Assembly (NCBI RefSeq): GCF_964194155.1
Contig: NC_135894.1
Coordinates: 20,336,001 to 20,400,000, forward strand
Direction: 5' to 3'
Length of the DNA stretch: 64,000 nt
Source: Cetorhinus maximus
Taxonomy: Eukaryota
Positions 26,722 to 63,887 of this stretch are shown one piece after another. Both the position numbers and the translations under genes were made by a program. A model generated the notes under the pieces. It was not told the DNA's origin, ran no database searches, and saw only the letters and a program-made list of their open reading frames with translations. Every line of letters starts with the position of its first letter. The stretch's first letter is position 1.

Positions 26722-26953
26722 AATAAAAACAGAAAACGCTGTAAAGACTCAACAGGTCTGGCAGCATCTGTGGAGAGAGAAACAGGGTTAATGTTTCGCG
26801 TCTGTATGACTCTTCAGCCCTGAAGAAGAGTCATACGGACTCGAAACCTTAACTTGGTTTCTCTCTCCACAGATGCTGCCAGACCCGCTGAGTTCTTCCA
26901 GCATTTTTGGTTTTTATCTCAGATTTCCAGCACCCACAGTATTTTGTTTTTAT
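26722..26953. mobile_element. Palindromic Penelope-derived mini-element with hammerhead motif
   Basis: Two ~95-nt inverted arms (AAAACAGAAAACGCTG...GCAGCATCTGTGGAGAGAGAAACAG / GTTTCTCTCTCCACAGATGCTGCC...TTTTT) meeting at ~26818; CTGAAGA-A-GAGTC-ATACG-GACTC-GAAAC at 26820-26847. Confidence 0.8.
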
Positions 26954-27365
26954 CTTAAGTCGAATGCTTGTCTCTTTAGAAGAATAAACTGCCAGATAAG
27001 ACTTCCACCTGGTTACATATTAAGATGAATTGGAAGAGATTAGTATCAGATTAATTACTTGAACTCAGTAAACATAGAATCATTCAACAAGATCCATCAG
27101 AATTCATCTGAGCCCATGACAAATATGTGGATACTGTTTTGTTCTTAAATGCATCTTTCTCTTGTTTTGCAGAAACTTGTTTGGAACCTATGTCAATGTG
27201 CAAGCTTAATTTAACTTTCACAAGATTTCAAGACTAACAGAGCTCCTTAGCCCCATCAGTAGTTTAATGGTTATTTAAAAAAAACATTTCAATCTGTACC
27301 TCTTGTCTATACTTACATGCAGTAAATTTGTATCTGTTAAATAATAACTGTTCATTCTTTTCAAG

Positions 27366-27423
27366 GCAACTGCTGTGTATCAAGCCAAAGAGAAGTTAAA
27401 ATCAATAGAGAAGGCAAGAAAAG
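27366..27423 (+). CDS. MED4: MED4 coding exon 4 (58 nt)
   Basis: ATAVYQAKEKLKSIEKARK(G), matching human as recalled; AAG| acceptor and |GTAGAC donor. Confidence 0.96.
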
Positions 27424-28003
27424 GTAGACATTTTTTAGCTAGAAAAAAATCTTTTAATAGTTGCACACAGTTACTCTACTGCTGAGACAATTAAGCATGG
27501 ATCCAATAATAGACTTCCTTTCCAAAGGAAAGTTGGCATGATCATAAATATATTATATGCTTTTTGCTTGGTAGTGAACGCTCTATGCAATTGTGATATC
27601 ACAGTGTTAGTGTTCCAATAGAGTACAGCTAAAACCTGCTCCCTCTTGCTGAGGTATTTCTGATGCCAAACCCTCCTTTGTTTTGATATCAGTGAACACA
27701 ATAATTAAAACTTCCTTCATAGTAAGCTTTTGTAATTCTTCTGAAGGTTGCTTTGTTTTTTTTAAAGTGTATGTATTCACTATACACCAACTGTAATGTA
27801 ATATTTTTCACTTTCATGTGTTTTGGATGACTGGTGCATGGCCGAAATGTGACCAGCTTATCTTCAGTGTTCTGGCTCCTTGTTCAAGTTAATACATGTA
27901 AAGAATTTTCAGATTTTTTTTTAAAAAAAGTGTGGCAGCTGAGTGTTTTTTATATATTTAAGGATCAGGTCAGTAAAGAATTATGGTTCTCTTTTCTTGG
28001 CAG

Positions 28004-28090
28004 GTGCCATCTCATCTGAAGAGCTTATCAAGTACGCACATCGAATAAGCGCCAGTAATGCTGTAGCAGCTCCATTAACATGGGTTCCAG
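28004..28090 (+). CDS. MED4: MED4 coding exon 5 (87 nt)
   Basis: [28 protein letters not shown](G); CAG| acceptor and |GTATGA donor. Confidence 0.97.
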
Positions 28091-31073
28091 GTATGAATCT
28101 AAATATTATTGATCGTGAAGAGCTTTCCTTGACATTGATCTTGGGCTTCAACTGCACTTTCTTGCCCACTCCCTCGATTCCCTGAGACACCAAAAGTCTG
28201 TCTGTTTCAGCCTTAAGTATAGTCAGTGATAGGGCATCCACTACCCTCTGGGGTGGAGATTCCAAAGATTCACAGTCCTTTGAGTGAAGAAATTTTTCCT
28301 CGTCTCAGTCCTAAATAATCGACTCCTTATCCTGAGACTGTGCCCTCCTGTTCTAGATTCCCCAGACAGGAGAAACAACCTCTTTGTGTCTACCCTGTCA
28401 AACTCCTTCAGAATCTTGTTTATTTCAATGAGATCACCCCTCCTCCTTCTAAACTCCAGACAGTATAAGCCCAATTTACTCCACATCTCATCATAGGACA
28501 ATCCTGTCAAACCAGGGACCAATATAGTGAATTGCCTCCAATGCAAGTATATCCTTCCTTAAATATGGAGACCAATACTGTATACAGTATTCCAGGTGTG
28601 GTCTCACCAAAGCTCTGCACAATTACAGCAAGGCTCCTTTATTCCTATATTCCAATTCCCTGGCAATGAAGGCCAACATGCCATGTGCCTTCCTAATTGC
28701 TTGCTGGACCTGTATGCTAACCTCTTGAGTTCCTAGTATGAGTGCATTCAAGTCTCTCTGAATATCAACATTTGCAAGTTTTAAGCCTTTTAAAACATAT
28801 TCTGCTTTTCTATTCTTACTCATTCAAAGCAAATTACCTCGTACTTCCCCCATTATACTTCATCTGCCATCTTGTTGCCCACTCACTTAACCCGTCTATA
28901 TTTCTTTGCCACCTGTGTCCTCCTCACAGCTTACATTTCCACCTAGCTTTGTATCATCAGTAAACTTAGATACATTACTCTGTGTCTAAGTCATTAATAC
29001 AGATTGTAAATAGCTGAGGCCCCAGCACTGATCCTCGTGGCTAGTTACAGCCTGCCAACTTTAAAATGCCTCATTTATGGTTACTCCTTGCATCCTGCCC
29101 ATTAACCAATCCTCTATCCATGCTATTATATTACCCCAAACTCCATGAGCCCGTATCTTGCCTATTAACTTTTTCTGTGGCACCTTATGGAATGCCTTTT
29201 GGAAATCAAAGTATACTACATCTACTGGTTCCCCATTATCTACCCCACCGGTTACATCCTCAAAAACCTCTGATCATACTATGCTTTTCTAAATGCTTTA
29301 AAACTTCCTTAATAATAGATTCCAGCACTTTCTTGATGCTGATGTCAGGCTAACTGGCCTGTAGTTCCCTCTTTTCTATCTCCTTCCTTTCTTGAATACC
29401 GGTGTCACATTTGCTAACTTCCAATCTGCTGGGATTATTCCAGGCTCCAGGGAATTTTGGAAATCATAGCAGAACATTCACTATCTCTTTTAGAACTCCA
29501 GGATGTAGGCCATCAGTTCCTGGTGAATTGTCAGATTTTTGTCCCTTAAGTTTCTCCAATACATTTTCTCTGCTGATCTTAATTTCCTCACTGCTTTTAG
29601 CACCTAGGTTACCCTGTATTATTGGTATGCAACTTGTGTCTTCTACTGTGAAGAAATATTTGTTTAATGTCTCTGCCATTTCCTCATTCCCCCTTAATTT
29701 TTCCTGCTTCTGAGGGACCAATGTTTACTTCAGCTACTCTCTTCCTTTCTATATACTTGTAAAAGCTTATATTCTGCCTTTATATTCATTATTTTCTCTC
29801 TCATTCCAATTTTTCCCCTGTGTATCAATTTTTTGTGGCCCTTTGCTGGTTCCTAGAACACTCCCAATCCTCAGACTGGCTATTATTATTTACAACCTTA
29901 TAAGCCTCTTATTTAAATCTAATTTTATCCTTAACTTTGAGTAAGCCACAGATGGATCTTTCTTGCTGAGCTTTTGTTTTTCAAAAGTATGCATTTTTAT
30001 TGAACATTTTGAATTGTTTCTTTAAATGTTTCTCTCTGTTTATTTGTGGCCATATCTTTATGTTTACCCAATCAAGCTTAGCCAGTTCTATCCTCATACC
30101 GATATAATTGGCTTTAAGATTCAGACTTAACATGGAATTCAATTTTATTATGATCACTAGTTACAAGCAGATCTTTTACAATTACATTACTTATTAACCC
30201 TGCCTCATTACATAATACTAGATGTAAAATAACTTTATCCGCAGTCGGTTCCACAACATATTGCTCCAGGAAAATGTCACAAAATCATTCTGTAAACTCA
30301 TCTTCTAAAGCACCCTTGCCAACTTGATTGGTCCAATCTACATGAAGATTAAAGTCCCCCACAATTATTACGTTATCTTTGTTACACACTCCAATAATTT
30401 GTTTAATGTTATTTCCAGGACTTCAATCGCTAACGCATAATTACTATTAAACTCTGTCCCTCCCTGTCCTACCCTGCTTGTTTTTACCTGCATCTCTACA
30501 CTGTTCTGTTGCTTCAGCTTTTCTCTTTGGATTTGTAAATCTTCACCCGAACTCTTTCTCCCCCATTAGTTTAAAGCCCTATACATAGCCGTAGTTATAC
30601 AAATCACAAAAACACTGGTACCAGCCCAGTTTAAATGGAGCCTATCCCAATGGAACAGCTCTTTCCTGTGTACTGGTGCCTGTGCATCAAAACCCTTTCT
30701 TCCCACACCATTCTGAGCCATGTGTTTATTTCTTTAATCTGTTTGACCCTATGCCAATGACACGTGGCTCAGATAACAATCCAGGATATGATTACCTTTG
30801 ATGTTCTGCATTTTAATTTGGACCCTAACTCTTCAAACTCAGCAGAGCTTCATTCCTAGTCTTATGTTGTTGTGGAACCAACAACTAGATCCTCCCTCTC
30901 CCACTGCAGGTTCGTGTCCAGCTGCGAGGCCTGGGACTGGGTAAGCAACATAATCTTAGGAGCTCCCTGTCGTTACTGCAGAGAAGAATGTCTGTCCCCC
31001 TGATTTTACTCAAATGAATACAAAGTACTGGAAAAATTCAGCAGTTCAGCAGCATCTGTGGAGAGAGAATCAG

Positions 31074-31113
31074 AGTTAACATTTCAAGTCCAATATGACT
31101 CTTCTTCAGAACT
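31074..31113 (-). ncRNA. Minimal type-I hammerhead ribozyme motif in a Penelope terminal-repeat fragment (~31020-31115)
   Basis: Minus strand: AGTT CTGAAGA A GAGTC ATATTG GACTT GAAAT GTT AACT = stem I, core, stem II, GAAA, NUH, stem I'. Confidence 0.6.
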
Positions 31114-31140
31114 GGCATTCTGTCCCCTGATTATGTGGTC

Positions 31141-31262
31141 CCCTGTCATTACCAGGTTTCTTTTTGCTCCCCCCACTTGTCCCCTGTCACTACCATGTTC
31201 CTTTTTGCTCCCCCCACTTGTCCCTTGTCACTACCATGTTCCTTTTTGCTCCCCTCACTTGA
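31141..31262. repeat. 41-bp tandem repeat x3 inside the CR1 ORF1 region
   Basis: Unit CCCTGTCACTACCATGTTCCTTTTTGCTCCCCCCACTTGTC. Confidence 0.85.
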
Positions 31263-34220
31263 ATGGCATCCTGCAACATGGTGCCACGGTCAGTTTGCTC
31301 ATCCACACAGATGGCAAGCACTTTGTACCTGTTTATAAAAATCAAAAGCTGAGGCTCCTCCATCACTACCTGCTTTATCCTTATGCCTGACTCGGAGTCT
31401 CAACCTCCTGTCCCTGACCATTGACCACCTCTAAAATTCTGCCTAGCCTAAGAGTTGTGACTGCCTCCTGGACCAATTAGGTAATCTTCCTCCCTTACTG
31501 ATGCTCTGCAATGTCTGCAACTCAGAGTCCAGCTCAGCAACTGAATGCACTGCCTGGGAGAGTGGTGGAGGCGGGTTGCCTCACATCCTTTAAAAAGTAC
31601 CTGGATGAGCACTTAGCACGTCATAACATTCAAGGCTATGGGCCAAGTGCTGGTAAATGGGATTAGGTAGGTAGGTCAGGTGTTTCTCACGTGTGGGTAC
31701 AGACTCGATGGGCCTCTTCTGCACTCTGTGATTCTGTGAAATCTGAGCCAAAGTTGCTCAAACCACAAACACTTAATTATGGCAAATATGTTTGTCCAGG
31801 ATTGCAATGCATTCCAGATTCTTGCATGTTGCAGTCATTGTACACCAATACCCTGCCATGTCTGTCTAACCATATTGATTGTAATAAGTCAATTAGTTAT
31901 TAATTTACACAGCTAAAGTAATAGCAAGTCTCCTAGCCTGGAGACAAAAAAAATACTCACCAACTATTGGAGGCTGAAAAAGGAGCACCCTCTGCATAAA
32001 ATTCCTGACTTAGCACTAGTTCCTTGACGCTCCCAGACCTCTTCATCTCACTTGGTGCTTCTGCTCTGTGCTGTAGCAAACAAAACCTGTCTGTTTTTAT
32101 AGAGGGCTAATGACTCATAGCCAAGTTGCAACTACTAAGTGAGCTTCCTGCTACAGTAATTAACAGCTATTCAGGCCAACACCTTCAGTTATTTGACCAA
32201 TAACTGCCACTACCAGGCATCTTCTGTTAAACTAGGTTTATTAACTATTTAAAATAGTGCCATTTAGCTGATTTTGCCTCACCCCATATCTTGGCAAGGT
32301 GCACCACTTTGCAGTTCTCCGCTTTAGATTTGGTGGGCCATGGAGTCTGTTGTTCTCCATCTTGTTTGCTGTGTTTTGTATCAACTGCAGGATTTGGAGT
32401 TGTGCCCTGTGTTCAGCTCCAGGTCAGTAGTTTGGCAGGGGAGCGATATTCTTTGTGCTGGCCCCGAGGGAGCATAGTTGTGTATGTCACTCCAGCCTGA
32501 ATCTGCAGCTTGCTGATTCATTGGATGCTCCATCTGTTGAATCCCTCATTATGTCTGGTTTTAAACTCTAACCCAGTTACACAAGAATAATTCCTAAACA
32601 ATCAGGAAAGAAGTAATTTTATATTCAGAAGATGTAGTGCTGGTTCTATGCTGCTTACACCAGTACAGGCTGATTGCTGTTAGTTTGAATGGTGCATCCT
32701 CACTGTCTGACATTCACCTGGTGAATTCCAAGTTCAGGTAGGAGGAAGAGTGAAGCAGAGGAAGAATCTATTCCAATTCTAGTTACCTCAGTAACCAATG
32801 ATTGGAAGATGTGTCTGCTACATGCTTAAAGTACTTGCATCATCTAGCTGTTAATTACATACCCAGCCAAAGAAATTCTTTGTTCAATCTACAAATTTCA
32901 ATCAGATTGCAACCAGGACAACTGGGGATGATAAAGTTAATAGGTCACTTAGAGTTTGTGGCTGGGCCAAAATCAATGGCTTTGATCTTCAGTCTTTAAC
33001 TGGAGGAAATTGTGACCCATCTACGACTGGGGTGTCAGAGAGTCAGTCTCCGAGCACAGACAGAGAGGTAGAGCTACTGTCTGACCTCTTCTTTGAATGA
33101 TGTCACTGAGAGGCAGCATGTGGATAAGTGATCAAATTCTCTAGCTTAGAGGGTTGAGGATGCTACAACGTTGAATACATTTAAGATTAGGATAGACAGA
33201 TTTTGGTGTCTCGGGCAACCTAGTGATATGGGGAGTGAGTAAGAAAATAGAGTTGAAGCCCATGATCATATTGAATGATGAAGCAGGCTAAATGGGCTGT
33301 ATGGTCTTCTCCTTCTGTCTTGTGTCCTTGTGTTTTAAATTTCTAGGTCAGATTCTGACCATTAATCAACATTATAGCTCGAGACAAACTCACCAGAAAT
33401 ATCCCAACTGTGCCAAATTTTCAACTTGGCACTCATTCCTCATTGCACTCAGTCCTTGTTATCTAACTCTGTGCTCCCACTTTGAATCATTAAGTATACT
33501 TAACCATGTTTAATCTGTTAAAATTGTACTATTCCCCCTAAACATGTAGAAGATACTAACCCCGAATGTGTATAATCATCAAATTTCACAACACAGGCCA
33601 TCACACCTGTACCAGCTCTCCGAAGAAGTTGTTCACTTAGTCCCATTTTGCTGCCATTTCCCCATATTCTTTTAAATTTTTTTTCCCCCAGATATTTATT
33701 CACTTTTATCCCTTTGAAAGCTATTATGGATTCTACTTTCACCACTGTTTCTGGTATGGCATCCGTCTCCTTAAAACTCTTGTGTTCAAAAGTAAATAAT
33801 TCTCTAAATGTTTCCTTTAATTGTTTATGATCTTAAATAACACCGCCCCCCCCCCAAACAGTTACCAACTCAATGACCTGTGGAAATAGATTTTCCCAAT
33901 TTACTTATTAAAATATCTCATTCAATTCTAACATGTTCTGTGACTGTGTTCCTCTGTGAATGCAAATTATTTAAAATAAGGATTGCTTGATTCCTCAAAA
34001 AGTAAAAAGTGAGGAGAGTATTGTGATTTCAGTACTATCACATTTCTGGTATTTGTAAATAGCATTTTTTAAAAATCAGCTGTGTTCCAATTTCCAATGT
34101 GTTCTCCTGTTTATGGGAAGCTGCTATTCACAATGAATTATATGGGGGAAGGGAACAAGAAAGTTTACTTCACAGTAACAATTACACTGAATGATTCTGA
34201 ACATTATATATTTGATTCAG

Positions 34221-35763: not shown

Positions 35764-35936
35764 ATGTACTTGCACCTCAGTACCCATGGCAGTCAAATGA
35801 CATGTCCCTCAACCTATTGCCTCCAAACCACAGCAATGATTTTATGCTGGAGCCTCCTGGACATAACAAAGAGAATGAAGATGATGTGGAAGTTATGTCA
35901 ACTGATTCTTCAAGCAGTAGTAGTGACTCTGACTGA
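35764..35936 (+). CDS. MED4: MED4 last coding exon; joined CDS is 759 nt = 252 aa + stop
   Basis: [56 protein letters not shown]; all intron phases are consistent. Confidence 0.97.
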
Positions 35937-36343
35937 AACGAAGAGAACATGTCTTTTTTAGTTCAATGTTTGGACTTATGGCATTGGAAAATCTTTTTGT
36001 TTCTCCCACTGCCTACTCCTTCCCATCTAATACTGATGATGCTGACCTGGTACGGGTACATCAAGAAAATGTATTTTGACAAGCATTGCAATAAGATAGG
36101 TAAAGTTCTGCTTAAAAGACATCTTTCCCCCAGTGTTGAATTCACTGTCCAATGTGAATATATAGTAAGAAACCAGGCATTAATTTATTCTACAGACCTT
36201 CATACCCAATACAAAAGTCCAAATAATTGATTTATGGTTTGACATTACTATTTAACATTTTCCCTACAGACTATTTTAATTGCATAACAATGCAGCAAGG
36301 AGAACTGAAAAAAATGGTAATTTACAACAGGAAAGTACTGTAC

Positions 36344-37522: not shown

Positions 37523-38055
37523 TAACAAAAGCAAAATACTGCAGATGCTGGAAATCTGAAATAAAAACAAAGTGCTGAAAATATTCAGCTGGTCTGGGTA
37601 GCATCTGTGGAAGCAGAAACAGAGTTAACATTTCAAATCAAATATGACCCTTCAGAACTAAAGGAAGGTAGAAGGGCGATGGGTTTTATGCTGTTGAAAT
37701 GGGGGGGGGCGGTGAGGAAGAACAATAGAGAAGGTCTAGGATAGGGTAGATGGCAGGAAAGATTAAATGACAAAGATGTCATGGAACAAAAGGAAAAGGG
37801 AGTGGTAATGGTTATAGTAAAGAAATGAAGCATTTGTCCAGAATGTGAATGTTCGAATAATGGACAGCTGTCCTAAATCAAAAACATGAAAAACAAGATT
37901 CAAACCATCCCATGGCAAAAAAAGAATCAAAATGGAGGTGGAGTTCATGGTTTGAAATTGAGTCCAGAAGGCTGTAAAGTGCCTAATCAGAAGGTCAAAC
38001 ATTAACTGTCTCTCTCTCCGCAGATGGTGCCAGAGTTGCTGAGTAATTCCATTGG
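37523..38055 (-). mobile_element. Penelope-like terminal-repeat fragment with a short inverted arm
   Basis: Same AAAAGCAAAATACTGCAGATGCTGGAAATCTGAAATAAAAAC terminus as the element at 54603; degenerate hammerhead motif at ~37622-37660; inverted arm at 38000-38050. Confidence 0.75.
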
Positions 38056-38367: not shown

Positions 38368-38532
38368 CAAAAGCAAAATACTGCGACTGCTAGAAATCTA
38401 AAATAAAAACAGAAAATGCTGGAAAAACACAGCAGGTCTGGCAGAATATGTGGAGAGAGAAACAGTTAACGTTGAGTCATACAGACTCAAAATTAACCCT
38501 TGTTTCTCTCTCCACAGATGCTGCCAGATATG
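38368..38532. mobile_element. Short palindromic Penelope-derived element
   Basis: Inverted arms flanking a residual GAGTC-ATACA-GACTC hairpin. Confidence 0.7.
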
Positions 38533-39828: not shown

Positions 39829-39989
39829 TTATATGCAATGAAGAGGCTGATTACCATCAGTTACTGGTGAATTTGTAGCAGCATTTTTAAGTCTTTCTTC
39901 AAAAGGATGATAAACTTGTCGCACACAAGCTAAAGGACAGAACAGCTGGTCTGTTGGTGGAAAATCTTCCCACTTGATCCAATCCCATC
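39829..39989 (-). CDS. NUDT15: Nudix hydrolase 15 (MTH2), last coding exon; joined CDS is 516 nt = 171 aa + stop
   Basis: (G)[35 protein letters not shown]...LHCI* vs human [36 protein letters not shown]| acceptor; AATAAA 5 nt after the stop (39818-39823). Confidence 0.9.
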
Positions 39990-44110: not shown

Positions 44111-45070
44111 AATAAAAACAGAAAATGCTGGAAAAACTCAGCAAGTCTAGCAGCATCTGTGGAGAGAGAAACAGAGTTAATGTTTCGAGTCCATGTGGCT
44201 TCTTCAGAGCTGGGGAGGTAGAAATGTGATGGATTTTATACTATTTAAAGTGGGGGGTGGGGGTGGCGATGGAACGAAATAGAAGGTCAGGGATAGACAG
44301 GAGCTCAGGTGAGATTTGACAAAGATGTCACTGACACAAGACAAAGGGGCTGTCATTGGTAGTGTTAAAGACTGAGGAAGGTGCTAATGTGGCATAAAGG
44401 CAAGACAGCAGAATATGTCAATAGCATAACAAGAGTCAACACTCTTTGAAAGGAAAACATAAGAACAAGTTACAGATGACTTGGGGGGGGGGGGGGGTGT
44501 GTGTGTGGCTGGGAAAAATAATTTTTAAAAGATCAAAATGGAGGACAGGGTTCATGACCTGAAGTTGTTATACTCATTGTTAAGTCCAGAAAGCTATAAA
44601 AGTGCCTAATCGGAAGATGAGGTGCAATTCCTCCAGGTTGCATTGGGCTTCACCGGAAGATTGCAGCAAGCTAAGGACAGAAATGTGGGCATGAGATGGT
44701 GAATTGAAATGGCAAGTGACAGGAAGGTGGGAGTCATGCTTGTGGACTGAGCGAAGGTGTTCCACCCAGTCAACGTTCAGTCTCCCCAATGTAGCGGGGA
44801 CTCCCTTTGTCTTGAGTCCATGACAACTCTGTCAAGTCTACTGAGCTCCTACCTATCCCTAAGCCTCTATTTTGCTCCACCTGCTCTACATCCCCACCTC
44901 TTCAACAGGATAAATCCATCACATTTCTACCTCTCTTCAGCTCTGAAGAAAAGTCATACGGGCTCAAAAGGTTAACTCTGTTTCTCTCTTCACAGATGCT
45001 GCCAGACTTGCTAAGTTTTTCCAGCATTTTCTGTTTTTATTTCAGCATCCGCAGTATTTTGCTTTTATTT
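44111..45070 (-). mobile_element. Penelope-like element 3' portion (GIY-YIG C-terminus) with inverted terminal arms
   Basis: ORF 44580..44789 HLRSVHKHDSHLPVTCHFN..LEELHLIFRLGT; inverted arm at 44803-45070; hammerhead motifs at ~44175-44211(-) and ~44939-44977(+). Confidence 0.85.
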
Positions 45071-45164
45071 TAGGTCATGGAGTGGCAGAGCCAGTCCAAA
45101 ATGGCGCCAATCAGGTCACGCAGCCCTACATTAGACCCGACGCAAAATGACCTTAAGATGAAAC

Positions 45165-45811
45165 AAAAACAGAATTACCTGGAAAAACTCGGCTGGTCTG
45201 GCAGCATCGGTGGAGAAGAAAACAGTTGACGTTTCGAGTCCTCATGACCCTTCGGCAGAACTGAAGTATAGTTAGGAGAGGGGTGAAATATAAGCTGGTC
45301 TAAGGTGGGGGGCGGGGGGAGAGAGAAGTTGAGGGTGGGGTGGTTGTGGGGATAAGCAAGCAGTGATAGGAGCAGATAATCAAAAGATGTCACAGACAAA
45401 AGGATCAAAGAGGTGTTGAAGGTGGTGATATTATCTAAGAAAAGTGCTAATTAAGAATGGATGGCAGGACACTCAAGGTACAGCTCTAGTGGGGGTGGGG
45501 TGGAAAGACTAACAAAGTATTCGTTGTAGATTTAAAAATAATGGAAATAGGTGGGACGGTTAACCTGGGCTTGTTCCCGGTAATAAGCCCCGGTGCTGCA
45601 TACACGAGACTTGCAGCGTCTTATTTGGGATTTGGAGCTGACAACAGCTATTTATGAAGCCTCCTCTCCCTCCCCATTGCCCCATCCAATTCCCGACTCC
45701 CTTCCTTCCTCTATCCCGCTGACTCTAACCCGTTGCAAGAAGCGTCTCCAGCACTGGCAGGGTTCTCGTTTTGGATTTCCAGCATCCGCAGTAGCTTTTA
45801 GCTTTTTGTTT
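45165..45811 (-). mobile_element. Penelope-derived non-autonomous element of a second subfamily, with a 17-bp TSD
   Basis: TGACCTTAAGATGAAAC at 45148-45164 and 45812-45828; hammerhead-like fold at 45223-45263. Confidence 0.8.
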
Positions 45812-46585
45812 TGACCTTAAGATGAAACTCATTATGCTAAACAAAAATACAGACCCCATTCATTGACATTAAAGCAAAATGATTTAAAACAGGACATCTT
45901 CAAACAGGGACTTGCTGTAGTCCATTTAGGCTCTTAATTCCACCCCACCCCCAAACTAGCCCCTGCTTCAGCTCTGATTGCTGATGGCAAAAGGCACATG
46001 TGGAGAAATCACTGTGATGCAGCATGTCAATACACAAGCACTATGCCAAGCCCCCTCAATTTTGTAATCCCTAGTGTAAATAGTAAGAGGATAATCAAAG
46101 CAAGGGTGGGGCCAAAAGGAGATCATCTTGTGGAGGCAGAGGCACTTTGCCTCTATCATCACTGGAAAAGAGGATGCTGCCATTGCAGCAGTAAAGGAGT
46201 TGCGGTTATAATGGACAGGATAAAAAGGGAGGTAATTAAAAGGTTGGCCATAAATCTTTGAGATCACTCGCTCCAGTCAGGATGTTGAGGGAAATAAGGG
46301 TGGAAATTGAAGAAGCTCTAGTCAGAATTCTCCAAACTTCCTCGGATTTAGCGGTGCTGTTAGAGAAGGTTCCCAACCCGTTAACACTACAGAACTTCAA
46401 TAACTGATTCCAATGGCTGTTAACTTTGCATTTTGGACCCAACTGTGTTAAGTTGGGATGCAACAACTGGTTAATCCATTTTAAAAAGGAAACCCTGCGA
46501 TATGAATGAAAGACTGTGAACTGCAGAAGCCCCCGCCATCATTCCAATGTGACCATGAATAGTGGTGCAGAGAGAGAGACTGTAC

Positions 46586-53385: not shown

Positions 53386-54602
53386 ATTGACCTGCTAACC
53401 TTGTTCTTCCAGGTAAAGACGCTGCTGGAACAGGATGTCAGTTAGCTAAAACATCCATGACTACTGCATAGGTGCTTCCTGGCTGCATGGAAGGATCCAG
53501 ACTCATAAAAGTTGAATCCTGCTGAGACATTCATTTCTATAGTTAAGGCTGTGCTGCATTAGGAAGCAAGTTATAGAGTTTACCAATTAATTCCTTTATA
53601 AAGTATGGCTGCTGAACAGTCAGCTCCTCAGACATCTCTCTGAATGTCAGTCAATGCCTATATATTCTCTGATCCAGTATTTGAGTATGGGGTGTTGTCT
53701 CTGCTGGCTGTTCATCACTCTCTGGCCTCCACTGTCTCAGGTCTATGCCTCCACCTCCTCCATTATATTATTAGACAGGGTTGGACACACTGAAAGAGCC
53801 ATTTTTATTTCTTAAATCAACTGTAAAATGGCCATCTTCAGTAACAGGATGGGAATGGCTGCAATACTTCCTGGAACAGTTGATTCGCACCTGCCTCAGG
53901 TCTGCATGAATATCTGGCCCCAATTTGAAGAGACCCTCTGAGAAAATGCAATTTGAGGAAACTTTATAACTTGGTGGCAAGGACAGTTATATGGACAGAG
54001 ATGCATTCTGCCAGGGGATTTGGTAGATGATTGTAAAATATTGAGGAGATTTACTTGTCCCAAATTACACACTTAATGTCCTAAATTCCAAAATCTTTTA
54101 GGCTACACATTTACTTTATGCCATGATGTATATGTCTCTAGGTGCAAATATGCAGGAAAGTAAAAATCAATTTTTTTGACTGTTATGTTTTGATAAAGTT
54201 GAGCATTTAATTTTTGAGAGAGGAGCAATGTATTATTTAAGACCATTTTAAAACTAGAATGATATCCAAATTGTCATCACCATGTCTATTCCCTTTACAG
54301 TTGCTGTAACCTACATTACAACAATGACTACGCTTCAGAAGAAGTTCATTGGCTTTGAAGCGCTTTGGGATATTCTGAAGTCAAAAAGGCATTATCTAAA
54401 TGCAAGTCCTGTGGAATTGCAGATGGGTAGTCAAGCCTAAGTGTTGTCTTAAAGTAAAGCATAATTAGAGGGTAAGGGACCAGGGAACCAAGGCATAATT
54501 CAGTTTCCATTCTAAAGTTACATATTTTGTCCTTTTGTTATTTTAAACAGAATTATGTATATATATCAGATTGGCTTATAAATCAAACTATTGGTGTAAT
54601 AT

Positions 54603-57007
54603 AAAAGCAAAATACTGCAGATGCTGGAAATCTGAAATAAAAACAGAAAATGCTGGAAAAACTCAGCAGGTCTGACAGCATCTACAGAGAGAGAAACAAA
54701 GTTAACGTTTCGAGTCTGTACGGCTCCCTCAGAGCTAAAGAGAAGTAGAAATGTGATAGAATTTATACTGTTTAAGTGGGGTGGAGCAGGTGAAGCTGGA
54801 TAGAAAGTTAGCAATAGGTCGGGGATAAGGAGGGATTGACAAAGATGTCATGGACACAAGACAAAGGGAGTGTTAATGGTAGTGGTAAGGGCTAAAGAAG
54901 GTGTTGACAATTGCATAAGGTTAGAAAGCAGAATGTGTGAATAGCAGAACAAAGGTCAGCACTCTGAAAGAACAACATAGAACAAGTGACATGTGGCCCT
55001 TTTGGGGGTGGAATGGGGTAGGGGGCAGTGATTTGGGAAAAAGGATGGAAAAGGGGATAAAACAATGAATAAATGAATAAAAATAAGTAAATAAAAATAA
55101 ATTTTTAAAAAGGGATTAAAAAAGGGGCAAAGATGTAGGGGAGAGTTCATGGTCTGAAGTTGTTGCACTCAATGTTAAGTCCGCAAGGCTGTAAAGTGCC
55201 TAATTGGAAGACCGGGTGCTGTTCCTCCAGTTTGTGTGGGCTTCACTGGAACATTGCAGCAAGCCAAGGATGGACATGTGGGGCATGAGAGCAGGATGCT
55301 GTGTTGAAAAGGCAAGTGACAGGGAGGTCTGGGTCATGCTTGTGGTCAGACCGAAGGTGTTCCGCAAAGTGGTCACCCAGTCTGCATTTGGTCTCTCCAA
55401 TGTAGAGGAAACCGCATTGGGAGCAGCAAATGCAGTAGACCAAATTGAAGGGGGTGCAAGTGAAATGCTGCTTCACCTGAAAGGAGTGTTTGGGCCCTTT
55501 GATGGTGAGGAGGGAGGAGGTAAAGCGGCAGGTGTTGCACCTTCTGCGATTGCATGGGAAGGTGCTGTGGGAAGGGGAAGAGGTGTTGGGGGTGATGGAA
55601 GAGGTGACCTGGAGGGAATGGTCTCTTCAGATTGCTGACAGAGGGTGGGGGGTCAGGGGGGTGGTGGTGGGGGGTGGGGTGGGGGAGGTGGGTGTGGTGG
55701 TGGCATCATGCTAGAGTTGGCAGAAATGGTGGAGGATGATTCTTTGAATGCAGAGGCTGGTGGGGTGAAAAGTGAGGACAAAAGGGACCCTATCATGATT
55801 CTGGGAGGGCGGGGAAGGTGTGAGGGCGGATGTGCAGGAGATGGGTTGCACACGGTTGAGGGCCCTGTCAACCACAGTGGGTGGAAAACCTTGGTTAAGG
55901 AAGAAGGAAGACACGTCAGAAGTGCCATTTTGGAAGGTGGCATCATCAGAACATGCAATGGAGGCAGAGGAACTGAGAGAATGGGTGGAGTCCTCACAGG
56001 AAGCAGGGTGTGAGGAGCTGTAGTCGAGTTAGCTGTGGGAGTCGGTGGGCTTGTAATGAATATTGGTGGATAGTCTATCACCAGAAATGGAGAATGGAAG
56101 GGAAGTATTGGAGATGGACCATGTGAAGGTGATAGAGGGGTGGAAACTGGAAGCAAAATTGATAAATTTTAATTGGTCCAGACGAGAGCATGAAGCGGCA
56201 CTGATACAGACATGGATGTATCAAAGAAAGAGTTGTGGGAGGGGGCCTGAGTAGGACTGGAACATGGAATGTTCCACATACCCCACAAAGAGGTGTGGGA
56301 GATAGTGGAAGCCTTTGTACACCCTCCTGCTCTCATGCCCACATGTCCGTCCTTGGCCTGCTACAACGTTTCAGTGAAGCCCAACGCAAACTGGAGGAAC
56401 AGCACCTCATCTTCCGACTAGGCACTTTACAGCCTTGTGGACTTAACATTGAGTTCAACAGCATCAGACTATGAACTATCTTCTCTATCCTTACCCCTTT
56501 TTTAATCCCTTTTAAAAAAAATGTATTTCTATTTACTTATTTTTATTTTTTTTCATTTATTCATTGTTTTATCCCCTTATTATCCCTTTTTCTATCCTTT
56601 TTCCCCAAACACCATCCCTCCCTCCCGCCATTCCACCCCCAAAAGGGCCATCTGTCACTTGTTCTATGTTGTTCTTTCACAGAGTGCTGACCCTTGTTCT
56701 GCTATTCACACATTCTGCTTTCTTACCTTTATGCCGCTATCAGCACCTTCTTTAGCCCTTACCACTACCATTAACACTTCCTTTGTCTTGTGTCCGTGAA
56801 ATCTTTGTCAATCTCTCCTTAGCCACCACCTTTCGCTGACATTCTATTCAGCTTCGCCTGCTCCACCCCCCTTAAACAGTATAAACCATCATATTTCTAC
56901 ATCTCTTTAGCTCTGAAGAAGAGTCATACAGGTACGAAATGTTAACTCTGTTTCTCTCTCCACAGATGCTGTCAGGCCCGCTGAGTTTTTCCAGCATTTT
57001 CTGTTTT
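54603..57007 (-). mobile_element. Penelope-like retroelement (RT C-terminal remnant + GIY-YIG endonuclease) with an inverted duplicated 3' end and a 14-bp TSD
   Basis: ORF 55243..55476 FTCTPFNLVYCICCSQCGFLYIGETKCRLGDHFAEHLRS (GIY-YIG with the Cys/His motif of PLEs); FFLNQGFPPTVVDRAL..RVPFVLTFHP; TSD TATTGGTGTAATAT at 54589-54602 and 57008-57021; inverted arm at ~56320-57007. Confidence 0.92.
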
Positions 57008-57643
57008 TATTGGTGTAATATTATAGGGATTAAAGTTGGGTAAATGGAATTGAGGTACATGATCTAATCAAGTGCTGAAAAGACTTAATGGCCTACCTCT
57101 GTAAGAATGCAGATAGTTTTTTTTTTCATTATTGGCACCTCTGTGCAGAGCTTTGACATCATGGGCCAGCAAGACTAATTGTAATGCAAAAAAAAAACAG
57201 CTTAGGAGATTGTCAGGGGATGTGATGTGAGGTGAAGTAGCCCTTGCCAGAAACTCTGTTCCCTAATCATTGACTCCATTTCACCCTTGGCCACTATCTA
57301 AAGCTGAACCAGGAAACCCACAACCTTGGCATCCTATTTGATGTTGAGCTGATCTATCAAATCTATTTCCTCTCTGTCACTAGGACTGCTGATTTCCACC
57401 TCTGTAATATTGCTGACCTCTGTTCCTGGCTTGGCTCATCTGCTGCTGAAGCCCTCATCCATGCACTTGTCGCCTCCAGACTCAACTACTCCAACGTGTT
57501 GCTAGTCGGTCTCCTGCCTTCCATTCTCTGAAAATTGAGTTCAAAAGCTCTGCTGTCCTTATCCTGATTCACACTAAGTCCCACTCACCCATCATCCCTG
57601 TGCTCAGCAACCTACATTGGCTTCCAGTCTGGCAATGCTCATC

Positions 57644-60600
57644 AAGATAAAAGCAAAATACTGAGGATGCTGGAAATCTGAAATAAAAACAGAAAAGGCT
57701 GGCTCCACAGCATCTGTGGAGTGAGAAACAGAGATAACATTGTGAGTCCATATGATGCTTCTTCAGATCTAAAGAGAAGTAGATGTGAAGGAATTTATAC
57801 TGTTTAAGGGAGAGTGGGTAGAGCAGGTAAAGCAGGTTAGGTGGGAGCTAAGGAGAGATTGATAAAGATGTCATGGACACACGACAAAGGGAGTCTTATT
57901 GGTAGTGGTGGAGACTAAAGAAGGTGCTGATAGTGGCATAAAGGTAAGAAAGCAGAATGTTTTAATAGCAGAACAAGGGTCAGCACTCTGTGAAAGAACA
58001 ACATGGAACAAGTGACAGATGGCCCTATTGGCGGTTGGGGCAAGGGGGCGGTGGTTTGAGAAAAAGGGATTTAAAAATGGCAATAAAAAGGGATAAAATA
58101 GTGAATAAATGGATAAAAATAAAAATAACATATCTGTCCTTGGTGTGCTGTCATATTCCAGTGAAGCCCAACGCAAACTGGAGGAATAGCACCTCATCTT
58201 CCGATTAGGCACTTTACAGCCTTCTGGACTTAACATTGAGTTCAACAACTTCAGACAGTGAACTCTCTCCTCTATCTTCATCCCATTTTTAGAATTTATT
58301 TTTATTTTTTATTGACTGATTTTTATTTTTATCCATTCATTTACTGTTTTATCCTTTTTTAAAATCCCATTTTCTATTCTTTTCCCCAACCACAGCCCAC
58401 TCCCCCCAACCCTCCCTCCCCTCCCCAAACCCCACCACAATAGGGCCATCTGTCACTTGTTCTATGTTGTTCTTTCACAGAGTGAAAAAGAGACATGATT
58501 ACAAGGAGATTGAAGCTGGGAACTAAATATTCAGGGGTATGTGACTTTTCGAAAGGGCAGGAAGGAAGGAAAGGGTGGTGGAATAGCTTCATTAGTATAA
58601 GATGGAATAAGTATGATAGCAAGAAATGACCTTGGATTGGAAGATATAGAATCCATATGGGTGGAGGTAAGAAAGAACAAGGGGAAGAAGACACTAGTGG
58701 GAGTAGTCTATAGGCCTCCTAACAGTAGCTATACTGTAGGACAGAGAATAAATCAGGAGTTAATGAAGGCATGTAAAAAAGGCAGTACATAATCATGGGT
58801 GACTTTAATCTTCATGTAGATTGGGAAAATCAAATTGGCAGAGGTAGCTACAAGCAAGAATTCATAGAGTGTATTTGGGACAGTTTCCTAGGACAATATG
58901 TTATGGATCCAACCAGAGATCAGGCTATTTTGGATCTGGTAATGTGTAATGAGGCAGGTTTAATAAATGATCTCGGAGTAAAAGATCCCCTAGGAAACAG
59001 TGACTAACATGGTAGAATTTAGCATTCAGTTTGAGAGTGAGAAACTTAGGTCAGAAACAACTGTGCTAAACTTAAATCAGGGTAATTACAAAGGAATGAG
59101 GGCAGAGATGGCTGGTGTGAACTTGGAAAGGGGTTTAGCAGAAAAGATGGTTGATGAACAATGGCAGATGTTTAAGAAAATAGTTCATGATTCATAACAA
59201 AGGTATATCCCAGTGAGGAAGAAGGATTGTAGGAAGGAGATAAACCAATCATGGTTAACCAAGGAAGTTAAGGATAGTATCAAATTAAAAGAAAATACAT
59301 ACAGTGTGGCAAAGATTAGTGGTAAGCCAAAGGATTGGGAAAGTTTTAAAATCCAACAAAAGATGACCAAAAAATAATAAAGAGGGAGAAAATAAACTTT
59401 GAAGGTAAACTAGCAAGTAATATAAAAATGGACAGTAAAAGCTTATTTAAATATATAAAAAGGAAGAGAGAGGCCAAAGTGAACATAGGCCCCTTATTGA
59501 ATGAGGCTGGAGAACCAGGAAATGGCAGAGGAGTAGAATAAATTATTTGCATCAGTCTTCACTGTGGAAGACACTAATAGCATTCCAAAAATACTAAATA
59601 ATCATGGGGCAAAAGTGGGGGGAGGAAATAAATACAATAACTATCACTGGAGAAAAAGTACTAGGGAAACTAATGGGGCTAAAGGCCGACAAGTCCCTGG
59701 GCCTGATGGGTTGCATCCTAGGATATTAAAGGAAGTAGCTACAGAGATAGTGGTGCAATCTTCCAAGAATCCTTAGACTTTGGAAAAGTTTCAGAAGATT
59801 AGAAAACTTCCAATGTAACAACATTGTTCGAAAAGGGAAGGAGACAAAAAACAGATAACTATAAGCCAATTAGCTTAACATCTGTCATCGGGAAAATGTT
59901 ATCGTGTATTATAAAAGATGTAATAGCAGAGCATTTAGAAATACATAATCTAATCAAGCAGAGTCAGCATGGCTTTATGAAGGGGAAATTTATTAGAATT
60001 CTTTGAGGATGTAACAAGCAGGGTAGATAAAGGGGAACCAGTAGATGTAATATATTTGGATTTCCAAAAGGCATTCAATAAGGCACTGCACATAAGGCTA
60101 CTTAATAAGATAAAAGCCCATGGTGTTGAGGGTAGTATATTAGCATGGATAGAGGATTGGCTAAATAATAGGAGACAGAGAGTTGGGATAAGGGGGTCAT
60201 TTTCAGAATAGCAACCTGCAACCAATGGAGTGCCACAGGTATCAGTGCTGGGGCCACAATTATTTACAATATATATTCATGTATTGGATGAAAGAAGTGA
60301 ATGTACTATCGTCAAGTTTACTATCGTCAACAGGTGGAAAGGCAAGTGGTGAGGATGATGCAAAGAGTCTACAGAGGGATATAGACAGGTTAATTGAGTG
60401 GGCAAAAACTTGACAGAAGGAATATAATGTGGGAAAATGTGAGGTTATGCACTTAGGCAGGATGAATAGAGGAGCTGAATATTATTTAAATGGAGAAAGG
60501 CTCCAGAAAGCTGCAGCGCAGAGGGAATTCGGGGTACTCGTGCATGAATCACAAAAAGCTAGCATACAAGTTCAGTGGGTAATAAGGAAGGCAAATGGGA

Positions 60601-61554
60601 TGTTGGCCTTTATTTCAAAGGGAATGGAGTATAAAAACAGGAAGTCTTTCTCAAACTATACAAGGCACTAGTTAGACCACACCTAGAATAGTGTGAACAA
60701 TTTTGGTCCCCTTATATAAGGAAAGATATACTGGCATTGGAAGCAGTCCAGAGAAGGTTCACTAGGTGCACATTGGTATGGAGGGATTTTCTTACGAGGA
60801 GAGGTTGAGTAGGTTGGGCCTGTATTAATTGGTGTTTAGAAGAATGAGGTGACCTTATTGAAACAGATAAGATTTTTAAGGGGCTTGTCAGGGTAGATAC
60901 TGAGAGGTTGTTTCCCCTTGTTGGAGAGTCTAGAACCAAAGGGCACAATCTCAGAATAAGGGGTTGCCCATTTAAGACAGAGATGAGGAGCAATTTCTTC
61001 TCTCAGAGGGTAGTGAGTCTGTGGAATTCCATACCGCAAAGGGCTATAGAGGTTGGGTCATTAAGTATATTCAAGGCTGAGAAGACATATCTTTAATCAG
61101 TAAGGGAATCAAGGGTTGTGGGGAAAAGGCAGGAAAGTGGAATTGAGGATTATCAGATCAGCCATGATCTCATTGAGTGGTAGAGCAGACTCGATGGGCC
61201 AAATTGCCTACTTCTGCTCCTACGTCTTATGGTCTTATAGTGCTAACCCTTGTTCTGCTATTCACACATTCTGCTTTCTTACCTTGATGTCACTATCAGC
61301 ATCTTCTTTAGTCTTCATCACTACCACCAACGCTTCCTTTGTCCTGTGTCCATGACACCTGTGTCAAAGTCTCCTTAGCCCCCAACTATTGCTGACCTTC
61401 TATCCTGCTTTACCTGCTCCCCCACCCCTAAACAGTATAAATTCTTTCACACCAACTTCTCTTTAGCCTCTGAAGAAGTCATACGGACTCGAAACGTTAA
61501 CTCTGTTTTTCTCTCCACAGATGCTGTCAGACCTGAGTTTTTCTGTTTTTATTA
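57644..61554. mobile_element. Palindromic Penelope-derived element interrupted by CR1, itself inserted in an L2-like fragment
   Basis: TSD TGGCAAT(G/T)CTCATC at 57630-57643 and 61555-61568; arms at 57646-~58130(-) and ~58130-58484 + 61239-61553(+); hammerhead motif at 61470-61502. Confidence 0.85.
58485..61238 (+). mobile_element. CR1 LINE ORF2 (APE + RT) inserted in the Penelope arm
   Basis: MGDFNLH, LDLVMCN, NYKPISLTSVIGK; host sequence CACAGAGTG|CTGACCC is split, with AGTG repeated at both junctions. Confidence 0.93.
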
Positions 61555-62245: not shown

Positions 62246-63035
62246 AATAAAACAGAAAATGCTAGAAAAACCTCAGCAGGTTTGGCAGTATCTGTGGGGA
62301 GAGAAACAGAAGTACAGTTTCCAGTCCGTTAAGACATTTCTTCAGAGCTAAAGAGTAGAAATATGATGAATTTTATACTGTTTAATTGGGGGGAGCGGCA
62401 GGTGGAAGAGATAGGTCACGGATAGGTGACAGCTAAGGAGAGATTGACAAAGCTGTCATGAACACAAATCAAAGGGGGTGTTAATGGTAGTGGTGAAGGT
62501 GCTGAGAGGGGCATAAAGGTAAGATAGCAGAAGGGGTTAATAGCAGAACAAGGGTCAGCACTCGTGAAAGCAAACCATAGGAAAAAAGTGATAGGTGGCC
62601 CTGGGGGGGGTGGGGAGAAGGAGAGGGGGAGAAGGAGAGGGGGGAGGGGGAGAAGGAGAGGGGGGAGGGGGAGAAGGAGAGGGGGGAGGGGGAGAAGGAG
62701 AGGGGGGAGGGGGAGAAGGAGAGGGGGGAGGGGGAGAAGGAGAGGGGGGAGGGGGAGAAGGAGAGGGGGGAGGGGGAGAAGGAGAGGGGGGAGGGGGAGA
62801 AGGAGAGGGGGGAGGGGGAGAAGGAGAGGGGGGAGGGGGAGAAGGAGAGGGGGGAGGGGGAGAAGGAGAGGGGGGGAATATAAAATAAATAAATATTGGA
62901 TGGGAGCTGGACATATTCAGCAGCTCTAGCTGCATCAATGTGGTGTGAAAATATCCTCGACCTGCAATGGCTCAATCTGTTTCTCCCTGCGGATGTTGCC
63001 AGGGCCCGCTGAGCATTTCCAGCATCAGCAGTATT
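62246..63035 (-). mobile_element. Penelope-derived terminal-repeat element abutting the SUCLA2 promoter
   Basis: Same arm sequence as 54603-55000; residual inverted arm at ~62975-63035. Confidence 0.75.
62612..62877. repeat. 21-bp pure-purine minisatellite, ~12 copies
   Basis: Unit GGGGGAGAAGGAGAGGGGGGA; gives the SPSPLSF and GGGEGEG repeat ORFs. Confidence 0.95.
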
Positions 63036-63039
63036 TGCC

Positions 63040-63560
63040 TCTGGCGGCGCCATACCCTGATTGCCAACATCCCCAACCGACCGACCACCCGAGCCTCGCC
63101 TCGCGGCCGCTTCAGAGCAGTTGGCTCGCAGCCTCGAGCCCGCCTGCGCGGTAACTGAAGCCAGCCCGCGCACGCGCGTTCCTGTGTGCCCCGGCGGGGA
63201 GGACGGACGAACGATGGCGACAGCGGTGCTGAGGTGCCGGTTCTTAGCGGCTTTGAGCGGCGGCGGCGGCGGCAGCAGCTGCTGTTGCGGTGTCAGCGCC
63301 TGTCGCTCCCGGGCTGCCAGGGTAAGTGACGGGAAGTGAAGGTGGATTCAAGCGGGGCTGATCCTGGGGAAGGGGCAGGGGGGGGGGGGATGTTTGCCTG
63401 CCGCTGTGGCTGTCGGGCCCGGAGTGGCAGCAGCCGGGGAGGTCAGTGCCGGGGTTTAAATCCGAGCTCGCGATCGTGGTGCACGTGAGAGCTGTTGACG
63501 CCCCCCCTCCCCCCCGCGCCAATGTCATTGGGAGGCTGATGGAGTAGAGGTTATCCGATG
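63040..63560 (+). promoter_or_regulatory. CpG island / promoter of the probable SUCLA2 gene, with NRF1-like motifs
   Basis: CGCCTGCGCG at 63141-63150 and GCGCACGCGC at ~63168; CpG-dense. Confidence 0.7.
63214..63321 (+). CDS. SUCLA2: Probable succinate-CoA ligase ADP-forming beta subunit, coding exon 1 (mitochondrial transit peptide)
   Basis: ACGATGG Kozak; MATAVLRCRFLAALSGGGGGSSCCCGVSACRSRAAR is Arg/Ala/Ser-rich with no acidic residues; strong phase-0 donor AGG|GTAAGT; head-to-head with NUDT15 as SUCLA2 is in human. Identity rests mainly on synteny. Confidence 0.72.
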
Positions 63561-63689
63561 GGCGTATTGGTGCAAAGCCAACATCCAAATGTCATTGTAA
63601 CCCACGGGCTCTTTGCATGGTACATGCAGACTTGTTCACCCGTATTCTCCCTTGCATTGCCACCCCATTCGGTTCCGATTTCTGCTTAA

Positions 63690-63887
63690 ATAAAAGCAAA
63701 ATGGTGCGGATGCTGCAGAGCTGATAAATAGAAAGCGCTGGAAAAACTCAGCGGGTCTGGCAGCATCTGTGGAGGGAGAACCGAAGAGTCCTATCGGACT
63801 CGAAACGTTAACTCTGTTTCTCTGCCCACAGGTGCTGCCAGACCCGCTGAGCTTATCCAGCATTTTGTTTTTATTTCGGATTTCAGC
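63690..63887. mobile_element. Short palindromic Penelope-derived element in SUCLA2 intron 1
   Basis: Inverted arms CTCAGCGGGTCTGGCAGCATCTGTGG / CCACAGGTGCTGCCAGACCCGCTGAG around a partial hammerhead GAAGAGTC-CTATCG-GACTC-GAAACGTTAACT. Confidence 0.75.

What the first reader, a model, noticed from the sequence alone, without database searches (positions are those of the whole stretch)
26722..63887. Dispersed family of Penelope-derived fold-back elements carrying minimal hammerhead ribozyme motifs
Seen: about 10 insertions (26722, 31020, 37523, 38368, 44111, 45165, 54603, 57644, 62246, 63690) share one terminal arm. The arm contains AG(T/C)T-CTGAAGA-A-GAGTC-(ATACG)-GACTC-GAAAC-GT(T/C)-AACT, i.e. 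stem I, CUGANGA core, an extra A, 5-bp stem II, GAAA, a loop-less palindromic ACGU stem III and an NUH site. Most copies have the arm twice in inverted orientation, and sizes run from ~170-230 bp pure palindromes up to a 2.4-kb GIY-YIG-coding copy. Established: Penelope-like elements carry minimal type-I hammerheads in their pseudo-LTRs, thought to cleave as dimers (Cervera and de la Pena). Inference: this is a full size series from GIY-YIG-coding element to ribozyme-only mini-palindrome, possibly a non-autonomous mobile family. Several copies lie inside MED4, NUDT15 and SUCLA2 pre-mRNAs. Most individual copies carry mutations and may be inactive.
Basis: partly seen in the sequence, partly recalled or inferred. 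Interest (0 to 1): 0.7.

Follow-up and report, generated by a model that had tools for sequence, protein, structure and literature searches.

The report
Shark Penelope fold-back insertion series
These ten repeats are end-pieces of a very common Penelope-type jumping gene in a shark-like genome, and each mirror-image copy was likely built on the spot during insertion rather than spreading as its own ribozyme element, so the finding is real but mostly a known pattern.

Summary
The ten insertions and the minimal type-I hammerhead motif are real. The arm is the pseudo-LTR (pLTR) end of a Penelope-like element of Neptune/Nematis type, with intact 925-aa copies elsewhere in the genome and about 440,000 arms by extrapolation. 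Inverted pLTR, one-sided tail, target-site duplication and opposite-strand hammerhead pairs are all published.

An independent mini-family is not supported. 75 mini-palindromes fall into 59 junction classes (largest 4), recurring junctions appear in different subfamilies, and sizes form a continuum.

Short arms stop at hammerhead stem I, 29-31 nt below a TATA-like box, and the two arms are often non-nested. The likely mechanism is two cDNAs primed from the two nicked strands, running off the RNA's 5' end. The youngest intact subfamilies carry A6C or A6U cores with a compensated stem II; cleavage is untested.

The scan noted this pattern many times before, in this and other shark genomes.

The parts
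26722..26957 (.). Mini fold-back, 236 bp: tail-less arm (-) 26722-26818, tailed arm (+) 26810-26957; 15-bp TSD (13/15) at 26710 and 26951; MED4 intron 3
31010..31113 (-). Solo tail-less stub that begins exactly at hammerhead stem I; TSD-like flanks (9/9 by script, about 15 bp with one indel by eye); MED4 intron 5, antisense to the pre-mRNA
37527..38051 (.). Decayed 525-bp fold-back: tailed arm (-) reaching about 290 nt from the element end, short arm (+) 37997-38051; no TSD found
38369..38528 (.). Mini fold-back, 160 bp, joined through the stem II microhomology; hammerhead 5' core absent; no TSD found
44111..45072 (.). 962-bp fold-back: tail-less arm (-) reaches about 810 nt from the element end (internal deletion), tailed arm (+) only 274 nt; NUDT15 intron 1
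45165..45812 (.). Young-subfamily insertion (96% to an intact copy): tail-less arm (-) 45161-45556 with an intact-geometry A6C/GUC hammerhead at about 45227-45263, a 205-nt captured host segment 45557-45761, and a 51-nt tail (+); perfect 17-bp TSD; NUDT15 intron 1, hammerhead in the pre-mRNA sense
54597..57011 (.). 2415-bp fold-back: 5'-truncated body (-) 54597-56330 with the RT 3' part, CX4CxxC linker and GIY-YIG remnant (55243-55626), inverted arm (+) 56319-57011; 14-bp TSD; intergenic
57644..61553 (.). One fold-back (57644-58484 plus 61239-61553) split by a later LINE-like insertion; 14-bp TSD (13/14); intergenic
   Evidence: (D18)
62246..62613 (-). Tail-less arm reaching about 414 nt, followed by a 21-bp tandem expansion (62623-62875) and a doubtful, very diverged (+) arm remnant at 62969-63050; upstream of the inferred SUCLA2 exon 1
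63690..63886 (.). Mini fold-back, 197 bp: tailed arm (-) truncated 3' of the cut site, tail-less arm (+) lacking C3-G5; inferred SUCLA2 intron 1

Best explanation
These are ordinary-to-minimal insertion products of one abundant Neptune/Nematis-type Penelope-like retrotransposon, and each fold-back was likely made at its landing site from two separate cDNAs joined head to head. Shown: the arm is the element's pLTR end; one arm keeps a 35-45-nt tail and the other lacks it; 14-17-bp TSDs; varied junctions, often at stem II microhomologies; short arms stop at stem I of the hammerhead. Inferred: the endonuclease nicks both strands about 15 bp apart. Each nick would prime reverse transcription at one of two internal start sites (tail end and tail start, as shown in vitro for the anole element). 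cDNAs started on the 5' leader would run off the RNA's 5' end, predicted to be the first base of stem I, giving arms of at most about 140 nt; cDNAs started at the 3' pLTR would give longer arms. The two ends would then be joined by microhomology. The hammerhead is a passenger in these copies and is predicted to be inactive in them, being mutated, single or locked in a hairpin; in the parent element it is likely a slow, dimer- or protein-assisted cutter.
For: Arm sits at both ends of full units with a 923-958-aa ORF in 19 of 20 fetched regions. One-sided tail in 70 of 75 mini-palindromes; 3' ends bimodal, 44 tailed and 34 short of 86 unselected arms. TSD scores 17, 14, 11, 9 and 9 for five insertions; 1 of 150 random pairs reached 9 or more. 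59 junction classes among 75, largest 4; the (-13,-23,5) class occurs in subfamilies A and B. Arms of one palindrome resemble each other more than arms of others (21.4 vs 19.4; maximum of 1000 permutations 20.1; n=62 of 75), with no A/B mixture among 36 pairs classified on both sides. 5' wall: of 35 unselected arms reaching -28, 22 stop by -50, and only 1 of the 13 that pass stops in the next 100 nt (14 of 23 and 1 of 9 at >=88% identity). TATA-like box to stem I: 29-31 nt in 14 of 14 subfamily-A matches and 27-30 nt in 79 of 79 B matches. Non-nested arms: tail-less arm reaches >=8 nt further 5' in 27 of 70 minis and in 3 of the window's 4 long, clearly bounded fold-backs, most strikingly 45165 (51-nt tailed side against a 396-nt arm, perfect TSD). 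Literature: both strands cleaved and extended, two internal RT starts, predicted dimer (PMC11167929).
Against: No transcription start was measured; contigs cannot show ends, and the runs may be of a related species. Deletions at palindrome centres after insertion could also give varied junctions and non-nested arms. The 5' extents are inflated beyond -35 by chance pyrimidine matches, and 24 of 70 arms are equal within 8 nt. Concordant arms fit one template as well as two. No TSD was found for 37527, 38369 or 62246, and only weak ones for 44111 and 63690. Arkhipova et al. 2013 explain junction palindromes by self-priming. D. virilis Penelope has a TATA-less internal promoter. A few junction classes do recur (10 of 59 have 2-4 members).
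Confidence: 0.72

Rival explanations
1. Same origin at insertion, but by fold-back: one cDNA self-primes on a hairpin or microhomology (or copies an antisense template), and the centre is later eroded by deletion.
For: Proposed for PLE junction palindromes in PMC3846280. Junctions cluster at stem II and other short palindromes. Arms of one palindrome are concordant. The tailed arm is equal or longer in 43 of 70 minis.
Against: Simple fold-back makes the inverted arm a subset of the tailed arm, yet it is longer in 27 of 70 minis and in the young, TSD-perfect 45165 copy. It does not explain why the inverted arm starts at the second RT start site.
Confidence: 0.2
2. The ~200-bp palindromes are an independent non-autonomous family (retrozyme- or SINE-like) copied as whole units by the PLE protein.
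For: About 74,000 minis by extrapolation from 19 in 1.03 Mb. Some junctions recur. pLTR-derived non-autonomous retrozymes exist (bioRxiv 10.64898/2026.07.22.740005), and pLTRs can mobilise unrelated DNA in trans.
Against: 59 classes in 75 despite selection for shared junctions; the same class in different subfamilies; a size continuum; head-to-head rather than tandem arrangement; only one sense hammerhead, predicted to be sequestered. Minis also lack the upstream TATA-like box.
Confidence: 0.06
3. Intronic copies act on host pre-mRNAs (cleavage or cryptic splice acceptor) in MED4, NUDT15 or SUCLA2.
For: 45165 and 44111 give two same-sense motifs about 1 kb apart in NUDT15 intron 1. The arm has an acceptor-like pyrimidine tract ending in CAG in 127 of 175 arms.
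Against: 44111 is mutated and paired with its inverted arm; 45165 has A6C; 31010 is antisense; 63690 lacks the 5' core. The acceptor AG is CCG in 39 of 175 arms, including the youngest. No GT..AG joint was listed in either read-laying run.
Confidence: 0.02

Closest known systems
EN+ Penelope-like element insertions with inverted pLTR, one-sided tail and TSD (Pen2a_Av, PMC3846280; general scheme in PMC8557442 Fig. 2 legend; D. virilis Penelope, PMC2377424)
   Same: Partial tandems, inverted 5'-truncated copy, 30-45-nt tail on one side, TSD, palindromic or microhomology junctions, host DNA captured between pLTR ends.
   Different: Here the series reaches hammerhead-centred stubs of 110-240 bp at about 74,000 copies, short arms stop at stem I, and the long ORF starts about 36 nt past the tail rather than inside the pLTR.
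Minimal type-I hammerheads of metazoan PLEs (Cervera and de la Pena 2014, PMC4209133)
   Same: Short helix I, extra base between A9 and G10.1, G10.1-C11.1, palindromic loop-less helix III, mostly single dispersed motifs; opposite-strand pairs 100-700 bp apart were already noted there.
   Different: Helix II is 5 bp, H17 is mostly U, and the young intact subfamilies have C or U at position 6. 'Shark' does not occur in the paper's main text.
PAc, Poseidon of Anolis carolinensis (PMC11167929)
   Same: Two internal RT starts that define the tail, extension of both strands, a hammerhead upstream of the starts.
   Different: Poseidon clade lacks the CX2-5CxxC linker, and its ORF begins inside the hammerhead. 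The parts I read do not address inverted products.
Non-LTR retrozymes (bioRxiv 10.64898/2026.07.22.740005)
   Same: pLTR-related, non-coding, type-I hammerhead.
   Different: Retrozymes are head-to-tail tandems with at least two same-sense hammerheads; these are head-to-head with one sense motif and varied junctions.
A6C hammerhead of phage Bcep176 (PMC3088659, PMC7151607)
   Same: Same core change, reported to slow cleavage in Mg2+ and favour Mn2+.
   Different: Here it is fixed in a recently spreading vertebrate retroelement and lies in a minimal motif; activity untested.

Membership tests
EN+ Penelope-like element | Single ORF with RT and C-terminal GIY-YIG | tested here: met
   923-958-aa open frames in 19 of 20 fetched regions. 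RVT_1 E 8.5e-6 and GIY-YIG E 0.045 in P0002, both under Pfam's cut-offs. DKG, YIDD and YIGET motifs. 2186 homologues at E<=1e-20.
EN+ Penelope-like element | pLTRs from partial tandems; inverted copies; optional 30-40-bp tail | tested here: met
EN+ Penelope-like element | Target-site duplication | tested here: met
   14-17 bp in 4 of 10 window insertions, a likely fifth, weak or none in 5
Neptune or Nematis clade | CX2-5CxxC linker before the GIY-YIG | tested here: met
   CX4CxxC at aa 783; diagnostic per PMC8557442
Neptune clade specifically | Placement in an RT tree with reference PLEs | not tested
   No named reference set was held; Neptune versus Nematis not resolved
Minimal type-I hammerhead of PLEs | Core CUGANGA, GAAA, NUH with extra base 9b and palindromic helix III | tested here: met
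   Met in subfamily A and older ones: A6 in 86 of 175 arms, 14 of 22 unselected
Minimal type-I hammerhead of PLEs | Invariant A6 in the young intact subfamilies | tested here: not met
   Of 19 intact copies, 17 gave a motif: 15 C6, 2 U6, none A6
Minimal type-I hammerhead of PLEs | Covariation in stems | tested here: inconclusive
   Stem II pair 4 U-A (139) to C-G (12), pair 2 A-U (81) to G-U (72), and an older AGGUC/GACCU form. These are few independent events. No compensation in stem I, which has a C-A mismatch in subfamily A.
Minimal type-I hammerhead of PLEs | Self-cleavage as dimer or with protein | not testable with these tools
   Only contigs available
Non-LTR retrozyme | Tandem units with two or more same-sense hammerheads | tested here: not met
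   No such array in the window; arms are head-to-head
Independent non-autonomous family | Shared internal junction across loci | tested here: not met
   59 classes in 75, largest 4

The most novel reading that the evidence does not exclude
The element's capped RNA begins at the first base of the hammerhead, so cleavage would remove only a 35-nt capped leader. The tens of thousands of stubs and palindromes would be a genomic record of twin-primed, run-off reverse transcription, which would explain how PLEs make their inverted ends. The currently spreading subfamilies would have detuned the ribozyme (A6 to U, then C) while keeping stem II paired.
Probability: 0.4. Interest if true: 0.6.

Novelty: new member of a known kind. 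Interest (0 to 1): 0.3.

Why it matters
How Penelope-like elements make inverted pLTRs, and what their hammerheads do, are open questions (PMC8557442, PMC11167929). A genome with hundreds of thousands of ends, intact recent copies and natural A6, U6 and C6 cores makes both testable. The architecture itself is published and the scan has reported these points on other windows, so this window adds examples, notably the 45165 copy, rather than a new system.

Tried and rejected
Rfam search of the window and of L317, L298 and L304: no hammerhead family. Rfam models evidently miss the minimal form, so this is not evidence against it.

Splice-acceptor idea (pyrimidine tract, CAG, then ATG right after the cut site) and a possible 5'-UTR intron across the pLTR/body boundary: no GT..AG joint in the listed tables for 4+4 runs (lists were cut, contigs only, and the youngest subfamily's diagnostic stretches had no cover even in the large, probably DNA, run). 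The AG is lost in young subfamilies. Left unsupported.

The ATG in the arm as ORF start: rejected; the long ORF starts 24 nt after an in-frame stop downstream of the tail.

Copies beginning at the cut site as a sign of cleavage in vivo: among 25 listed arms starting at -10..+8 none was clean. Five of those near -2 share the end of another repeat upstream and look like secondary insertions.

Monomer folding of four motifs gave no signal over shuffles (z -0.8 to +0.1). PDB search with the full protein: 0 hits at E<=0.01. An extra cap-derived G at stub junctions was not tested.

L299 was cut on the wrong side and dropped from the intact-copy count. The junction script caught only 5 of the 19 unselected minis.

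Literature searches with no useful hit: Neptune + Penelope + cartilaginous + GIY-YIG 0; Penelope + shark genome + repeat + PLE 0; twin priming + Penelope 3 unrelated listings; Penelope-like + hammerhead + shark 1 review listing, not read.
Full report
Setting. The window is G000:C16:20336001-20400000 of a 3.99-Gb genome. The best named protein relatives of the element are from Chiloscyllium and Rhincodon, so the host is shark-like; the species was not determined. MED4 exons map on + at 8241, 15945, 16811, 27366, 28002, 34218 and 35761-36449. NUDT15 runs on -, with exon 1 near 46.6-46.8 kb, exon 2 from 43086 (E 7.5e-21 to NUDT15) and a likely exon 3 near 39987. SUCLA2 exons lie 60 kb past the window on +; its exon 1 at about 63215-63322 is inferred from an ATG, a donor-like site and a CpG-rich context.

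Observation. All ten positions carry the arm. Seven have two hammerhead-region arms head to head. 31010 is a solo stub, 45165 has one arm plus a bare tail, and 62246 is uncertain. 57644 and the arm ending at 61553 are one insertion split by a LINE-like element (TSD 13/14; homology to an RVT_1-coding stretch). TSDs of 15, 17, 14 and 14 bp flank 26722, 45165, 54597 and 57644; 1 of 150 random position pairs scored as high as the weakest of these. None of 18 window arms is a fully canonical hammerhead.

Parent element. A search with the window's GIY-YIG piece gave 76,071 first-look candidates, 150 scored. L100 shows arm-ORF-arm. A search with its N-terminus listed many 925-aa open frames. 19 of 20 fetched regions hold 923-958-aa frames, 96.3-98.9% identical in 28 pairs among 8 copies. 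The unit is about 3.3 kb, preceded by a truncated tandem copy and sometimes an inverted one. DKG, YIDD, CX4CxxC and YIGET motifs fit the Neptune/Nematis type as defined in PMC8557442 (passages). These intact copies were found with a subfamily-B query; no intact copy of the window's main subfamily A was seen, but the search was not exhaustive. The 2.4-kb window copy covers aa 538-916 only. In 103 stretches taken at round coordinates on large contigs (1.03 Mb) there were 114 arm hits and 19 mini-palindromes, extrapolating to about 440,000 and 74,000.

Junction test. The three window minis have different centres. Searching the genome with each centre (candidates scored each) and adding other loci gave 75 distinct centres in 59 classes; ten classes recur, the largest with 4 members. 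The recurring classes mostly use 3-6-nt microhomologies or overlaps, often in stem II, and the (-13,-23,5) class occurs in subfamilies A and B. The two arms of one palindrome share variants (21.4 against 19.4, permutation maximum 20.1, n=62 of 75; 34 of 36 doubly classified pairs concordant, none A/B).

Ends. 70 of 75 minis have the tail on one side only. Unselected arms end either at the tail end (44 of 86) or 24-50 nt earlier (34 of 86). This matches the published tail, which PMC11167929 (main text read, parts 1-2 of 4) ties to two internal RT start sites on a protein that cleaves and extends both strands. At the 5' side there is a wall: 22 of 35 arms that reach -28 from the cut site stop by -50, while 1 of the 13 that pass stops in the next 100 nt. 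Stubs often begin at or within a few bases of stem I. A TATA-like box lies 27-31 nt above stem I in long copies. In the all-against-all control, nearly all upstream-flank matches were to partner inverted arms; L065/L088 was the clear case of a separate older upstream sequence. I infer that the RNA starts at stem I. The run-off and twin-priming readings came from earlier scan notes; the tests are mine. The tail-less arm extends further 5' than the tailed arm in 27 of 70 minis, the reverse holds in 19, and 24 are equal within 8 nt. The tail-less arm is also longer in 44111, 45165 and 57644 but not in 54597. Simple fold-back cannot give this, but later central deletions could.

Ribozyme. The motif matches the minimal hammerhead of Cervera and de la Pena (PMC4209133, parts 1-2 of 4 read), who also noted opposite-strand pairs 100-700 bp apart and found no monomer activity and low dimer activity. 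Stem II shows one clear double change (U-A to C-G) and a wobble change. Stem I shows none and has a mismatch in subfamily A. Position 6 is A in 86, U in 59, C in 26 and G in 4 of 175 arms (a set enriched for young copies), and A in 14 of 22 unselected arms. Of 17 intact copies with a detected motif, 15 have C6 and 2 have U6. A6C is known from phage Bcep176 and lowers activity in Mg2+ while sparing it in Mn2+ (PMC3088659 passages; PMC7151607 part 1 of 4). The window's 45165 copy has this core with otherwise intact stems. A fold-back transcript has one sense motif and is predicted to pair end to end. Contigs of probable RNA runs carry the arm but showed no splice joint in the listed tables and cannot show cleavage.

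Prior art. Inverted pLTR, tail, TSD, junction palindromes and host DNA captured between pLTRs are in PMC3846280 (passages); inverted-repeat Penelope forms in PMC2377424 (passages). Retrozymes as PLE derivatives are tandem (bioRxiv 10.64898/2026.07.22.740005, part 1 of 5 and passages). My searches found no paper on this shark family or on twin priming in PLEs; supplements, Repbase and most subscription journals were not seen. The scan's own index holds 177 findings with these words in at least 16 genomes, and 46 in this genome; they are unchecked notes, not support.

Verdict. Real, correctly recognised as Penelope-derived with minimal hammerheads, but a new member of a known kind rather than a new mobile family. 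The residual value is as material for the insertion mechanism and the detuned core.

Noticed in passing
window 45557-45761; L317:1495-1702: The filler inside the young 45165 insertion is 93-96% identical to a multi-copy, non-PLE sequence clustered on contig C24 and small contigs, flanked there by GCGCATGCGC-like motifs (label NRF1 recalled). It is possibly the 5' end of a host RNA captured by template switch.
   Followed up: partly
L070:8886, L076:7516, L082:5452, L091:5204, L228:5272: Five old arms are cut 2 nt before the hammerhead cleavage site and share the end of another repeat upstream, apparently secondary insertions at the TTAA there. This can mimic copies that start at the cut site.
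   Followed up: no
window 10914-13438 and 18906-21213: A pair of LINE-sized inverted repeats, 90-94% complementary over about 2.5 kb, within the MED4 gene, in the introns on either side of exons 2-3.
   Followed up: no
G000:C13:82071232-82071636 (L314): Intronless MED4 retrocopy, 97-100% identical to the window's exons and 3' UTR, with a 269-aa open frame.
   Followed up: partly
window 32696-32825: Weak SNORA7-like match (39 bits, E 1.5e-4, below the gathering score of 100) in MED4 intron 5.
   Followed up: no
L309: In one young tandem the 5' and inverted pLTRs share one stem II variant while the 3' pLTR has another, suggesting the inverted arm was copied from the 5' leader.
   Followed up: no
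L298:1927-2024: Young subfamilies have a donor-like GT in the pLTR and, in some copies, an acceptor-like site just before the ORF start, a possible ~95-nt 5'-UTR intron; no joint was seen in contigs.
   Followed up: partly
window 22109-22402, 608-812, 62623-62875: Tandem arrays of 31, 31-32 and 21 bp.
   Followed up: no
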